This document shows positions 27,001-33,000 of a DNA stretch of 64,000 nt, in pieces. How positions within the stretch are numbered: position 1 is the stretch's first letter; each line of letters starts with the position of its first letter. The DNA comes from Candidatus Woesearchaeota archaeon (GTDB lineage Archaea > Nanobdellota > Nanobdellia > Woesearchaeales > JACPJR01). The position numbers are program-made. The stretch covers positions 62,001 to 126,000 of the forward strand of contig JACPJR010000014.1 in the NCBI GenBank assembly GCA_016187565.1, written 5' to 3'.

Positions 27001-30000
27001 ATGTACTCGTGAGGGAACGAGGTAATCACGTGCTCCTTCAGGAGTAGAGCGTGCCAGCATTGGTGTTTCTATCTCAAGAAATTGATGCGCATCAAGGTAC
27101 TGTCTCGTCACTTGGTAGACCTTGTGGCGAAGGACTAAGTTTTTCTGCATCAAAGGCCTTCGTAAATCAATGTAACGGTATTTTAACCTGATTTCTTCAT
27201 TACTGTTTGCTCGATCGTCAACCTCAAGTGGCGGGGTGTCTGCTTTGCTGAGTAAACTAACCTCATCAACAAGTACCTCAATCTGTCCTGTTGCTAACTT
27301 TAGATTCTCCAACCGCTCGCCCCTTGGTCGTACAGTCCCTTTAATCTGGAGAACATCCTCTCGACTTACCTTTTCTGCAATTTGGTGAACAGCTTTTTGA
27401 TGCTTGGGATCAAAAACAACCTGCGTAAGTCCATACCTATCTCGCAGATCAATAAAGATTATTCCTCCATGGTCTCGCCTACTCTGATTCCAGCCACAGA
27501 GCATAACCTTCTTTTTGTTATCATTAAGGCGTAATTCTCCACAGGTATGGGTTCTCATGGGCATTGTTATCACCTATTTATCAGGAATAGTTATAAAGAG
27601 TGGGAAGGTACCCACTACAGAGGAACTATAACCTCTCCAGTATTTTCTCTTCTCTATTTAAAGATTGTGCAAAATTTATGGAACTGAAGGAATAAAATGA
27701 GAACTCTGAAACTTGAAGACAATGTTTCAAGGAGAGAATAATTTATATATTCGATGTTTATCTTATAAAGAATATGTCTCCAAAAAACATTCGAGTCACT
27801 AATGAGGAGTTTTATATTGCAACTGAGTGGAGTATTATTACCGCGATTAGGGGAGTAGAGAAGTCTCTGAAAGACGTTGCATTACAGGCAGCAACTGATG
27901 TTGGTGTTGAAGTTGATCGTAGCAGGGTTGTAGAAGGGTATTATGGTATACCTCTTGAATTGCATGAAGAAGGTTTGGATAGTTTAAGGGAGTTCTTCTT
28001 TACAGTTAAAGCACTCCAAAAAGGTGTCCCTAACGGAACAGTACGATCCGAAGCATTACAAAGATTGGATAAACTCTATCATAGTCCTGCGTTCGGAACT
28101 GGTCCAGAACGACCAACTGTTTACCATCCTGAACCTCCAATGGGTTGGGAGTTTAGGGAACATGAACCTCGTTTCCTCTCAGGTGTTGTTGATGGAATTT
28201 ATCTTGCAATGAGGGAGAACGGTTGGAATTCTCGAGATCATAATACCCAAGCCATAGTAAGAGAGGCTGTAGAATTGCAACGCACAGGGAAACTTGGAGT
28301 CAATCTTGTAGCACTGGCAACACTGGTTGATGATAAGGAACATCAGTATGATGGACAGATTGATCCCGTCTGTCTGACGTACTCGTTATTCACCACGGTT
28401 CTTTCAAGAGCAGAGGCGAGAGGTGGTGGCGCACCAGTCAAGTTTACGTATCAGTGGAATGTTGATTCGGAAGTAGAGGAACTTGGTGCTGCGGTTGTGA
28501 ATGCTTATAATCAAGCGTTTGCACAGGCTCTTCCGAAAGAAAGAATCCAAGCAACACCATTCCATAAAGCTGATGCAGAAAGATGCAGTTATGCTGCAAA
28601 TGCTAGCGATTTGCGGTTAGGAAGGGAACGGATTGTAAGGGTTGATAGTCATGATATTGAAGGAATCTTGCATTGGGCAGTGCGGTGGAATGGAAAGAGA
28701 TACGTAACACTTACCTTTACATCTCCGGAGATTGTTGATCCTGTTGCCTATAAAAAAGATCCTCGGATAATTGATGCGTATAGTCCGAAACCAACAATTG
28801 GTTGAGGTGAAGCATACGATTTTTGCCACAACTAATGTATGGATGTTCTCTTGTATTGTTGTCAGAGAAGCAACATGAAACAAGCCTTATCTTCATTGGA
28901 ATTGTATTATCTCTGTCAAGAGTTTCAAGAGTTAGTTAGTGGAAAAGTCGACAAGATCTATCAGCCGAGTAAGGAAGAGTTTCTCTTTTCTTTCCATGTG
29001 CCGAATAAAGGAAAGAAAATGCTCAAAGTATTTTTACCTGGATTCTGTTATCTGACAGATTACAAAGGTCAACAGCCAGATAAGCCTTCCGGATTTTGTC
29101 TTTTCCTTCGTCGTCATTTAACCAATGCACGGCTTCAAGAAGTAACGCAGCTTGCTTTTGAAAGAATCCTTTTTTTTACCTTTACGACAAAGGATGATGT
29201 GATAACCTTAATTATAGAACTTATTCCACCCGGCAATGTTATCCTTTGTAATAAAGAACATAAGATAATATCTGCTGCAACAACACAAACAAGAAAAGAC
29301 CGTACGGTTCGTGGTGGTGTGTTGTACGAGGCACTTCATCAGCCGTATAATTTTTTAATCTTAACAAAGGAAGATTTACAACAGGTAGTTGAAAAAAGCA
29401 CCAAAGATAGCCTGGTGAAAACCCTAGCACTTGATCTTGGTTTAGGTGGGATTTATGCAGAGGAGCTCTGTCTTCGTGCACTAGTGGACAAGCAAAAAAA
29501 GATCTTTACCGTACAAGAGATGCATCAACTCTTTACTGCAATGACAACCCTGCGAACCATGCAGATCAATGCACAAATTGTCACTGATGAGCATAACGCT
29601 GTTCATGACATTACTCCTTTTATTCTCTTGCGCTATGCACAAGAAAAAGCATTTGTTCTCAAGCCAATGCAAAGCTATAATGCCGCATTGGATGAATGTT
29701 TAACAGAGAGAAAAATGGTTGAGGTGAAAAAAAAGACTCTCTCTCATTATGATACCTCCATTGGAAAATTACAGCTGATTCTTCAGGAACAGGAAGAAAA
29801 AGTCAAAGAATATGAGAAGAGCGAAGCCTTGTATAAAAGTTACGGAGAACTCTTATATCAACATTATTCTCTGGTGCAGAGTCTCTTGCAAGAGTTAAAC
29901 AAGGCCAGAAAGGAACATTCCTGGGAAGAGATTAAAGAAAAGGCAAAAGGCCATCCGCACATTAAACAGATCCTTGAAAAAGAAGGAAAGATTGTTCTTG

Positions 30001-33000
30001 CATTGGAGTAAATGGTAATAACAAAGTAGTTTATGTTGCTATTCAAAAACACAAAGTGGTGGTCCAACAGAGACAAACTCTTTTTGAAAGAGGGAGACCT
30101 CAATTACTCTATTATTAGGAAAGTTTTCCTCTATTTCTTGTAATTTCTCCCTCAGTTGGTATGGATCTTTAACGAATAATCCAAATTCCAGAAATGGATC
30201 TCCGACATATTCAGCAAGAAAGGAAACATGGGTATGTTGTGTTAGATAATTGATGAGTTTTTGTTTTTCATCAATGTTTTTATTTATAATAAAAATGCTA
30301 TATTGAAATAATCCTAATTTTGAAATATCAACAAAAAGAGAATAATTTTCTATATGCCCGCTTGCCTCTAATTGTTTCATTCTTTTTGTGATGGCAGGAG
30401 CTGTTAAAGAAATTTTTTGAGACAGCGCAACACTACCAATCCTTGAGTTTTTAGCTAGTTCTTTGAGGATAATTTTATCTTTGTTATCAATACTATAACC
30501 TTTATATTGTTTATTACTTCGTTGTTTAGGCGATGCTCCAAAATACTTTTCATAAAAAAACAGCGATCTTCTATGAAGTGTAAAGCGATGGTCTATAATC
30601 GCGTCTTTGAATGTATTATATATTTGAAGGAATCTCTCATCTAATTCTGCATTTGTTTTAGCGGTTATAGAAAGACCAAAACTCCAGACTCCGGAGAGTT
30701 CTGCCACCCAAGAGACGAACGGTGTTTCTGCTAGGAATTGTTTAAATCTTTTTTGATGGGTTGCTTTAACATTCACAAAAACGGCAGCGCCAACAAAACC
30801 AAGTTTCTCTCTATTTATTTCAGTGACAAAATCGAGAATGATACCTTCTTTCTTTAATCGGTTGAGGCGATACGTGGCAACCTCCCGCGAAACTTTCAGT
30901 TTTTTTGCTAGTTGGGTAAGAGGAATTCTTGAATCTTGCATTAAGATTCTGAGTAAATAGGTGTCTATTTTGTCCATTATTTACATAATAAACGTTTAGT
31001 ACTATATAAACTTTATTAGTGTAAGTTTTCTGCTAACATGTTTTATATATCTTATCCTATAGCCATTTATTAGTGGTTACAATAAATAGACTCGAAAGTT
31101 TAGAACCCGTACGCAAACAAGCAACTCATGTTCATGTAAATAGGGATAAGGTCAGAGATTTTGCGGGAAGTTTTGATAGAACAAGACTCGCTCATTGGTT
31201 ATGTGTTTCTCCATTTGATTTAGATCAGTTGGATGAAAAAGAAAAACTTGGCTTTTTATTTACGCTTAACGCAATGAGTTTTAGTTACTGGGGAACTCCT
31301 AAATGGAGAGTTGTATATCAGGGAATGGAATATGATGGTGCAAAGGCAATGATCGCTTGTTTAGGAAGAGCAAGAGAAAATGGCGTTTGTTTTAATCCTG
31401 ATTATTTAGCCAATATTCAGCGAGAGGATTTAGAAAACATTTTGCGAGGGAATGTTGAGATCCCCTTATTGGACGAACGGCTATATATTTTAAAGGAAGT
31501 TGGCGCTGTTACCCAAAGAAGTTTCAGAGGTGATTTTAGATACATTGTTGACAGATCGCAGGGTGATGCTTTACACCTCGTTGATTTACTTGTAGGTCAT
31601 TTTCCATCTTTTGAGGATTCGGCAATTTATGGAGGAAGAAAAGTCGAGTTTAGCAAGCGGGCACAGTTATTAGCATCTGATGTGGATTATTTGTTTGATA
31701 GCTTAGATAATAGCCATAGATTAACTGCTTGTGCAGATTACAAACTTCCTCAAGTATTACGGCGCTATGGTATTTTAGCGTATTCTGCTGAGTTACAAAG
31801 CAGCATTAGAGTAGGAAAGGAAATTCCAGCACACAGCGAAGAGGAAGTAGAGATAAGGGCACATACCATTCATGCAGTAGAGTTAATAAAAGCAGATATT
31901 ACCGGTGTAACCTCTCGTCAAGTCAATGATTATGTATGGTTGGAAGGACAGATAAAACTACCAACCGATGAGCCCTACCATCTCACCCGAACAACAGCGT
32001 ATTAAATCCCAAATCGATATGTTTTTATATCCCAGTCACATTTAGCAGATAGTATGGCTGAAACAATAACTAGAGAAGTGGCGGAAGATTTAAGAGAAAT
32101 TAAGAACGATTTAAGGTACATTAAGGAGCATATGGTGGATATTGATTCAATATTGTCAGATGATGACAGGATTGCTATGAGGCAAGCTAGAAGAGAGCTT
32201 AAAGAAGGAAAGACAACAACACTATCTGCTCTAAAAAAAGAGCTTGGGCTATAATGTTCACTATTGAATTCTCAAACAAGTCCAAGAAATTTCTCAAAAG
32301 ATCTGACAAACAGCTAGCTGTAAGAATAATTGAAAAGATAGAATTGCTAAAACATAATCCAGTGATTCATGACTCAAAAAAAATTATTGGACAAGATAGG
32401 GCTTTCAGGATACGTATTGGAGATTATAGGGTATTGTATGAAATTGATTGGAATAACAACATAATTCTTGTTGATAAGATAGATAAAAGATCAAGAGCTT
32501 ATGATTAGCTCCTTAGCCCCCCTTTACCCAATCACCGGTAACTTATGTTTTTCAAAGACAAGTAAGCCTGCACCGATAACACCGGCATCATCACCGAGCT
32601 TGTTCTTTACAATGCGTACTGATCTTCCTAGGGGAGGATACACTAATTGTTGAAATTCCTTGTTGAGTTGTTTGTAGTAGGAAAGGTTACTTAAACCACC
32701 GCCCATGACAATGCGTTCAGGATTCAGAATATTGGTGAGACAGGCTAAATTCCACGCAAGATAGTGGATCATTTCATGGTATACTGTTCGTGCAAGAGGA
32801 TCTTTTGATTGGACAAGGGTAAAGACAGTAGGATCTTTTATTTTTCCACCATGAGCTTTGTACCTCCTCACAAGGTTTGGTCCAGAAATCCAATCCTCCA
32901 TAGTTGACTCCTTTGGGTATGTTTTTTTTGCATACGGACTGATATGCATATGACCTGGCTCACCTGCCCCTCCGAGAAAACCTTTATAGATTTTTTTATC

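What a model noticed while it worked through the whole genome (the two positions that open the first line are those of the whole stretch)
28875..30011. Ribosome quality-control factor RqcH split in two at the coiled-coil across Woesearchaeales
The NEMF-family factor aRqcH is two unlinked genes: NFACT-N/HhH plus the first coiled-coil helix (C4:90875-92011, 378 aa) and the second helix plus NFACT-R/C (C11:26981-27784, 267 aa). The two chains likely re-form the tRNA-bridging coiled-coil arm as a heterodimer on stalled 50S. All described RqcH/Rqc2/NEMF are single chains.
Evidence so far: Call 25: halves match M. jannaschii aRqcH (671 aa) at 1-393 and 468-670. Call 22: C half in 42 of 43 order genomes, open frames 251-316 aa in all but one (479); G053 of another order 611 aa. 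Call 27: N half in 37 of 41, frames 308-449 aa. Unlinked in single-contig G016, G025. Search 26 found no report.
(Added by a program. Inside this text positions count along the whole contig: contig position 62,001 is position 1 of the stretch shown here. "Call 12" and the like, gene names such as g00115 and contig names such as C1 are that model's own, and its searches are not shown. The text may have been shortened before it was handed on; [...] marks where a part breaks off. The agent that wrote the report below was given it as the finding of a first reader that could run no searches.)

Follow-up and report, generated by a model that had tools for sequence, protein, structure and literature searches.

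The report
Ribosome-rescue factor RqcH in two pieces
This small archaeon encodes the ribosome quality-control protein RqcH as two separate genes cut at one hairpin turn, and the pieces are predicted to reassemble; the same split was already listed for Nanoarchaeum under an older name, so the new part is its breadth and its likely reversal in a sister group.

Summary
Confirmed, but less new than claimed. Window 28875-30011 (+, 378 aa) covers positions 1-376 of the 645-position archaeal RqcH model; an unlinked 267-aa gene on contig C11 covers 381-645. The cut lies in the turn of the M-domain beta-hairpin between the two coiled-coil helices. None of 121 order genomes has a full-length gene. Motifs are intact and the halves are predicted to pair (0.73, best control 0.00; may reflect solved intact homologues). 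Podar 2013 already lists this family (arCOG01695/COG1293) as split in Nanoarchaeum equitans and Nst1, and NEQ506 starts at the same site. The scan found the split before on at least 8 other windows. Not found in print or earlier notes: in a sister order the halves flank cysS in collinear order (11 of 21 split genomes), single-chain forms at that locus nest among split ones (likely re-fusion, at least twice), and one family carries a release-factor-like domain fused to NFACT-R instead. Heterodimer and tailing are untested.

The parts
28875..30011 (+). rqcH N-half gene, 378 aa: NFACT-N, HhH, first coiled-coil helix and most of the M domain. Its partner, the C-half gene (267 aa: last M strand, second helix, NFACT-R, NFACT-C), lies outside the window at G000:C11:26981-27784 (-)
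29160..29165 (+). E96-R97, inferred equivalent of the tRNA-binding D97/R98 motif of B. subtilis RqcH
   Evidence: aligned to NEMF 'DR'; E in 119 of 120 and R in 120 of 120 N-half homologues, E in 113 of 120 full-length archaeal homologues
29676..29909 (+). first coiled-coil helix and following M-domain helix (about residues 268-345), predicted to pack against the C-half helix
   Evidence: interface residues 277-345; helices 264-325 and 327-343 in the model of an intact homologue
29985..30011 (+). terminal beta-strand (residues 371-378) and stop codon at the cut: first strand of the M hairpin
   Evidence: aligns to strand 375-380 of intact P0183, the C half starts at strand 383-388; predicted contact of residue 374 with C-half residue 5

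Best explanation
RqcH is encoded here by two intact genes cut at the turn of the M-domain beta-hairpin, and the two chains likely reassemble non-covalently into one factor that would bind stalled large ribosomal subunits as single-chain RqcH/Rqc2/NEMF does. Shown: complementary coverage, a fixed cut site, conserved motifs, purifying selection, co-occurrence. Predicted: the first helix (N chain) and second helix (C chain) zip into the antiparallel coiled coil, and the last N strand pairs with the first C strand, rebuilding the hairpin that in B. subtilis tethers RqcH to uL11. Inferred from homologues: the N chain reads the tRNA anticodon stem-loop, the C chain docks NFACT-R on the A-site finger, so only the pair could both anchor on the 50S and position tRNA for mRNA-free C-terminal tailing of the stuck peptide.
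For: Halves tile the model, 1-376 and 381-645. Cut maps to the two-residue turn between strands 375-380 and 383-388 in the AF2 model of intact P0183, pLDDT 92.4, whose top fold matches are NEMF, Rqc2 and RqcH. 80 of 80 related loci hold a stand-alone C half, nearly all starting at that strand (the query favoured such halves). Own order: 119 of 121 genomes match, 106 with two or more matches, 0 over the full-length cut-off (includes unpublished G110, G118). Order of G151: both halves in 21 of 21. Motifs match full-length archaeal RqcH: E/R, E of EIM, D and H of DWH in 119-120 of 120 sequences. dN/dS 0.06-0.22 in the 6 of 10 N-half and 0.06-0.07 in the 2 of 10 C-half same-genus pairs where synonymous sites were not saturated. 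Complex score 0.73, best of 3 controls 0.00; mark reached by 116 of 157 solved complexes and 2 of 215 mismatched pairs; runs agree in at least 98% of contacts, partner pLDDT at least 86. Single-chain forms nested among split forms rejoin at the same turn. Division of contacts in B. subtilis RqcH: passages of 10.1101/2020.09.03.281279 and PMC8373112.
Against: No experiment on binding, ribosome association or tailing; searches found no paper on archaeal RqcH activity (PMC9540759 names only a candidate). The complex pass may come from likeness to solved intact RqcH/NEMF. 13 of 121 order genomes show one match and 2 none; an N-half profile finds nothing in G010 and G119, 97% complete but fragmented, which keep the C half (the profile rang in 5 of 5 known positives). 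114 of 151 sister-order genomes have no match, and NFACT-R persists without the N half in families f128 and f134. The window copy has P-P where most N halves have S/G-K at the inferred G124/R125 position.
Confidence: 0.8

Rival explanations
1. The halves have diverged in role: the C half acts as a stand-alone NFACT-R RNA-binding protein like eukaryotic CCDC25/Jlp2, the N half as a separate tRNA-binding protein.
For: Solo NFACT-R is a known family (PMC4075521 passages). Solo or newly fused NFACT-R without an N half occurs in f128 and f134. C half only in G010 and G119. Genes unlinked with no shared neighbourhood in the own order.
Against: Both chains keep the half-helices and half-hairpin that make sense only as a pair, whereas the lineages that lost the N half also lost the strand and second helix. 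Both halves in 21 of 21 genomes of another order; operon-like linkage and re-fusion in the sister order.
Confidence: 0.1
2. The pair reassembles and binds stalled 50S subunits but does not add tails; it only marks or stabilises them, or acts on RNA in another way.
For: Tailing is not shown for any archaeal RqcH in the papers searched. Archaeal sequences carry E, not D, at the inferred D97 position, and the R125 position varies. A processivity factor like RqcP is not known in archaea. An RNA-modifying role was proposed for NFACT-N (PMC6514570 passage).
Against: The same substitutions are in full-length archaeal RqcH, so they are not a result of the split; tailing is shown in both bacteria and eukaryotes.
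Confidence: 0.25
3. The pieces are rejoined covalently, by RNA trans-splicing or by a split intein, into single-chain RqcH.
For: Split genes joined after expression exist in N. equitans (trans-joined tRNAs; split-intein DNA polymerase, recalled).
Against: No intein domain in either half; N halves end at a stop right after the strand and C halves start with Met at the next strand. Duplex energy between N-stop and C-start regions is the same for true and mismatched pairs, -18.3 versus -18.3 kcal/mol, 26 genomes.
Confidence: 0.03
4. Assembly artefact or decaying pseudogene.
For: The genome is a 35-contig assembly.
Against: Same ends in hundreds of independent records, halves 180-418 kb apart on single contigs, purifying selection.
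Confidence: 0.01

Closest known systems
Split 'Predicted RNA-binding protein' of Nanoarchaeota, arCOG01695/COG1293: NEQ438+NEQ506 and Nst1_176+Nst1_251 (Podar et al. 2013, PMC3655853, Table 1 and supplement file 2)
   Same: Same family (COG1293 is RqcH); two separate genes; NEQ506 (P0241, 255 aa, NFACT-R only) starts at the same hairpin strand as the C11 gene.
   Different: The paper did not name it RqcH, gave no structural site or mechanism in the passages seen, and called it intact in all other archaea then known; here it holds across a large order with 1-2 Mb genomes, is linked around cysS in a sister order and is likely re-fused there.
Single-chain RqcH (B. subtilis, PDB 7AS8/7AQC), Rqc2 (yeast, 8AAF), NEMF (human, 9GY4) and archaeal RqcH (NCBIfam NF041120)
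   Same: All domains present in order across the two genes; motifs kept; best sequence and fold matches.
   Different: Two chains; neither passes the 400-bit family cut-off alone (253 and 324 bits); the uL11-binding hairpin would be built from two polypeptides; function untested.
Solo NFACT-R proteins CCDC25/Jlp2 (PMC4075521)
   Same: NFACT-R domain encoded apart from NFACT-N, with a coiled-coil segment.
   Different: CCDC25 has a C-terminal coiled coil and coexists with intact NEMF; here the helix is N-terminal, NFACT-C is kept, and no intact copy is in the genome.

Membership tests
RqcH/Rqc2/NEMF (NFACT) | NFACT-N, HhH, coiled coil with M domain, NFACT-R (and NFACT-C in archaea) all present | tested here: met
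   two genes together cover 1-376 and 381-645 of NF041120
RqcH/Rqc2/NEMF (NFACT) | single polypeptide above the NF041120 cut-off of 400 bits | tested here: not met
   253 and 324 bits on separate contigs; no other piece in the assembly. It is a split form, not a canonical member.
RqcH/Rqc2/NEMF (NFACT) | tRNA- and ribosome-binding motifs (DR, EIM, DWH) | tested here: met
   E-R, E and D-x-V-F-H as in full-length archaeal homologues; DWH aligned directly to RqcH, DR through NEMF, EIM by inferred position
RqcH/Rqc2/NEMF (NFACT) | antiparallel coiled coil with M hairpin formed | tested here: inconclusive
   predicted across the two chains, 0.73 versus 0.00, but a pass may come from solved intact homologues
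RqcH/Rqc2/NEMF (NFACT) | binds large subunit with peptidyl-tRNA and drives non-templated tailing | not testable with these tools
   needs experiments
Split arCOG01695/COG1293 of Nanoarchaeota (Podar 2013) | same family, encoded as two separate genes | tested here: met
Split arCOG01695/COG1293 of Nanoarchaeota (Podar 2013) | same split site | tested here: met
   NEQ506 (P0241) begins at the same model column as the C11 gene; NEQ438 itself was not fetched by name
Split arCOG01695/COG1293 of Nanoarchaeota (Podar 2013) | descent from one splitting event | tested here: inconclusive
   free tree separates the split orders by single-chain lineages; one origin not rejected, p-AU 0.059
CCDC25/Jlp2 solo NFACT-R | solo NFACT-R with C-terminal coiled coil beside an intact NFACT gene | tested here: not met
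   helix is N-terminal, NFACT-C kept, no intact copy
Split-intein proteins | intein fragments at the cut ends | tested here: not met
   none by Pfam or by inspection of the ends

The most novel reading that the evidence does not exclude
The split arose by insertion of cysS into the M hairpin of rqcH in a common ancestor of this order and its sister order; the sister order keeps the relic operon N-half, cysS, C-half, has re-fused the halves at the same turn at least twice after cysS moved away, and in one family has replaced the N half with a release-factor-like domain fused to NFACT-R, a possible tail-free rescue enzyme. RqcH would then be a naturally modular, reversible two-chain factor whose tRNA-reading and ribosome-docking halves can be uncoupled, re-joined or swapped.
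Probability: 0.3. Interest if true: 0.68.

Novelty: new member of a known kind. Interest (0 to 1): 0.4.

Why it matters
It explains why RqcH looks absent or hypothetical in annotations of a very large archaeal group: each half falls below the family cut-off. It turns a 2013 table entry into a named factor with a precise cut through the uL11-binding hairpin, giving a natural split tool to separate tRNA reading from ribosome docking. The split in 1-2 Mb genomes, the cysS-flanking operon and the likely re-fusions argue that gene splitting in DPANN is not only a one-way mark of extreme reduction. The basic fact of the split is not new.

Tried and rejected
RNA-level joining: no duplex signal. Third piece or intact paralogue in the genome: none. 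cysS beside the halves in the own order: not seen in loci L016-L139 (flanks of 1.5-3 kb, some duplicates) or L219-L238; in G000 cysS is on contig C26. Conserved neighbourhood in the own order: none dominant (best recurring neighbour in 6 of 23 N-half loci; scattered clusters for C halves). Reaching Aenigmatarchaeota through a locus so titled failed: its phylum sample repeated the genomes, so it adds nothing. The search tool's '1101 aa' and '756 aa' open frames in G242 and G244 suggested CysRS fusions; ORF listing showed separate genes; similar long frames reported for G079, G133 and G188 were not checked. Correlation of N-half and C-half distances (Spearman 0.48 in 20 own-order genomes, 0.70 in 38 split, 0.70 in 20 single-chain) is explained by shared descent and is not used as support. 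For the f134 N-terminal domain, Pfam, PDB sequences and the Atlas (best 0.89) gave no name; a bVLRF1 search of G000 rang nowhere, controls included, and shows nothing. Literature: no paper held 'split'+'RqcH'+'DPANN', 'NEQ438/NEQ506' as typed, 'split genes'+'RNA-binding protein'+'Nanoarchaeota'+'Woesearchaeota' or 'aRqcH/archaeal RqcH'; 'split' does not occur in PMC4075521; the DPANN review PMC6349945 lists other split genes, not this one. No read or expression data were examined.
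Full report
Observation. The ORF at window 28875-30011 (+) is open for 378 codons and ends in TAA. It matches Pfam NFACT_N and positions 1-376 of the 645-position archaeal RqcH model NF041120. The gene at G000:C11:26981-27784 (-) encodes 267 aa with NFACT-R and matches positions 381-645. PDB sequence matches of both are NEMF, Rqc2 and RqcH. A six-frame scan of the assembly with a profile of 110 full-length homologues finds only these two pieces. The neighbours of the N half (an unknown ORF, a Lrp-type regulator, aspS) and of the C half (Lrp, a pilin-like gene, HIT proteins) give no functional hint.

Where the cut lies. In the AlphaFold2 model of an intact homologue (P0183, Methanothermobacter tenebrarum, pLDDT 92.4) the long helix 264-325 is followed by a small M domain ending in strands 375-380 and 383-388, then the second long helix 393-438. 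The N half ends with the first of these strands and the C half begins with the second. N halves end alike (40 of 120 ends printed), and 80 of 80 related loci hold a stand-alone C half, nearly all starting at that strand. So almost nothing is lost, and the cut runs through the hairpin that B. subtilis RqcH uses to hold uL11 (PMC8373112, passages), not through a helix.

Distribution. Own order (homologues are named Woesearchaeota): 119 of 121 genomes match, 106 with two or more matches, 13 with one, 2 with none, 0 over the full-length cut-off (150 of 240 matches were listed; unpublished G110 and G118 are in the count). The halves lie 180-418 kb apart in single-contig G016, G025, G084 and G096. 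In the order of G151 both halves are found in 21 of 21 genomes. Single-chain genes occur in G125, G173, G176 and G374 and in one 649-aa protein that its source names Woesearchaeota (P0134). Four stand-alone C halves named Altiarchaeota (one flagged partial) start at the same strand. Other DPANN phyla were not reached (one search repeated the own phylum).

Function retained. The inferred tRNA-binding motif reads E-R in 119-120 of 120 N-half homologues and E in 113 of 120 full-length archaeal proteins; D and H of the DWH motif are in 119 and 120 of 120 C-half homologues. In ten same-genus pairs synonymous sites are near saturation while non-synonymous change stays low; dN/dS is 0.06-0.22 for the 6 N-half pairs and 0.06-0.07 for the 2 C-half pairs where it could be computed. 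ESMFold2 pairs N residues 258-378 with C residues 1-74 at 0.73 against a best control of 0.00; the mark was reached by 116 of 157 solved complexes and 2 of 215 mismatched pairs, the runs agree in at least 98% of contacts, partner pLDDT is at least 86. The interface is the coiled coil plus the strand pair across the cut. Intact homologues are solved, so this pass may show likeness only. No intein and no RNA complementarity for splicing were found.

Mechanism. In B. subtilis, NFACT-N and HhH touch the tRNA anticodon stem-loop and not the 50S, while NFACT-R contacts the A-site finger and the distal CC-M contacts uL11/H44 (bioRxiv 10.1101/2020.09.03.281279, passages). The split therefore puts tRNA reading on one chain, A-site-finger docking on the other, and shares the uL11 hairpin between them. 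The likeliest reading (0.8) is a non-covalent heterodimer that behaves as archaeal RqcH; that it adds tails is a further inference, since no archaeal tailing experiment turned up. Against it: C-only genomes G010 and G119, no match in 114 of 151 sister-order genomes, and solo NFACT-R derivatives.

Prior knowledge. Earlier scan notes pointed to Podar et al. 2013. [quoted passage not shown] P0241, named NEQ506, is a 255-aa NFACT-R protein that starts at the same strand as the C11 gene. So the split of this family at this site is in print under an older name. Searches found no paper naming it as RqcH or extending it to Woesearchaeota; the library lacks most subscription papers, Waters 2003 and later nanoarchaeal genome papers were not seen, and bioRxiv supplements are closed.

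In 11 of the 21 split genomes one contig carries N half, cysS, C half in that order and strand, mostly after a pilin-like gene and before rps19e; 7 more have cysS near one half; 3 show none in the stretches fetched. In G149 both junctions are ATGA overlaps; in G288 the N half has an in-frame stop. The 6 single-chain genes follow the same pilin-like gene without cysS in between; cysS is on another contig in the 5 checked. On a 64-row tree (junction columns and the four Altiarchaeota halves left out; quick search, SH-aLRT only) five of them nest in two places among split forms with support 97 and 99; G335 is a long unplaced branch. On a 43-row subset (21 rows dropped, LG+G4) a clade of split forms without them is rejected, p-AU 1.7e-5, a test framed after the first tree was seen. 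Re-fusion at least twice is the simplest reading. One origin for all split orders is neither shown nor rejected (p-AU 0.059). Whether cysS insertion caused the split or the halves later clustered around it is open; cysS was not seen near the halves in the own order. In family f134 seven genomes carry a 223-244 aa protein, at this locus where flanks were read, with NFACT-R behind a new 110-aa domain; its model (pLDDT 80.9, 7 sequences) matches the middle domain of eRF1, Balon, Dom34/Pelota and aRF1 at Z 7.0-8.6 over about 100 residues, tied with ParM at 8.7, with a GG-bearing loop that has Gln in 3 of 7 sequences. This is a lead only.

Verdict. Real, conserved and well placed structurally, but an extension of a published split and already noted on other genomes by this scan. 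New member of a known kind; interest 0.4.

Noticed in passing
L008:1486-3866 and L003:1519-2265 (G149); also L151, L153, L199-L205, L207: In the sister order the two rqcH halves flank cysS in collinear order, usually between a pilin-like gene and rps19e; in G149 both junctions are ATGA stop/start overlaps.
   Followed up: yes
L154, L163-L166, L206 (G248, G278, G331, G289, G267, G335): Single-chain rqcH of about 550-600 aa at the same locus without cysS; five nest among split forms in the tree: likely re-fusion at the same hairpin turn, at least twice.
   Followed up: yes
L159:3085-3807, L182, L183, L259-L262 (family f134): At the rqcH locus a protein with a 110-aa domain of RNase H-like fold resembling the eRF1/Pelota/Balon middle domain, with a GG loop, fused to NFACT-R; N half and second helix are gone. 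Possible replacement rescue factor.
   Followed up: partly
L013:1405-2238, L014, L015 (family f128): NFACT-R alone (about 125-136 aa) or fused behind a NUDIX domain; no N half found.
   Followed up: partly
L153:3460-5745 (G247): cysS between the halves is in two ORFs around a 270-aa ORF that looks like a nuclease; possibly a mobile insertion or intron.
   Followed up: no
G068, G094, G148: Three own-order genomes at 95-99% completeness show neither half: possible true losses.
   Followed up: partly
L001:9339-10643: Tandem HIT-family genes near the C half; a HIT gene recurs near the C half in 13 of about 100 loci. An RNase P/proteasome/exosome cluster follows at L001:11022-14637.
   Followed up: no
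window 27774-28805 (+) and 24965-25714 (-): ORFs of 343 and 249 aa near the N half with no Pfam match.
   Followed up: no
window 31073-32005 (+) and 32054-32508 (+): Queuosine salvage family gene, followed by a small overlapping gene pair that looks like a RelE-type toxin-antitoxin module (recalled likeness).
   Followed up: no
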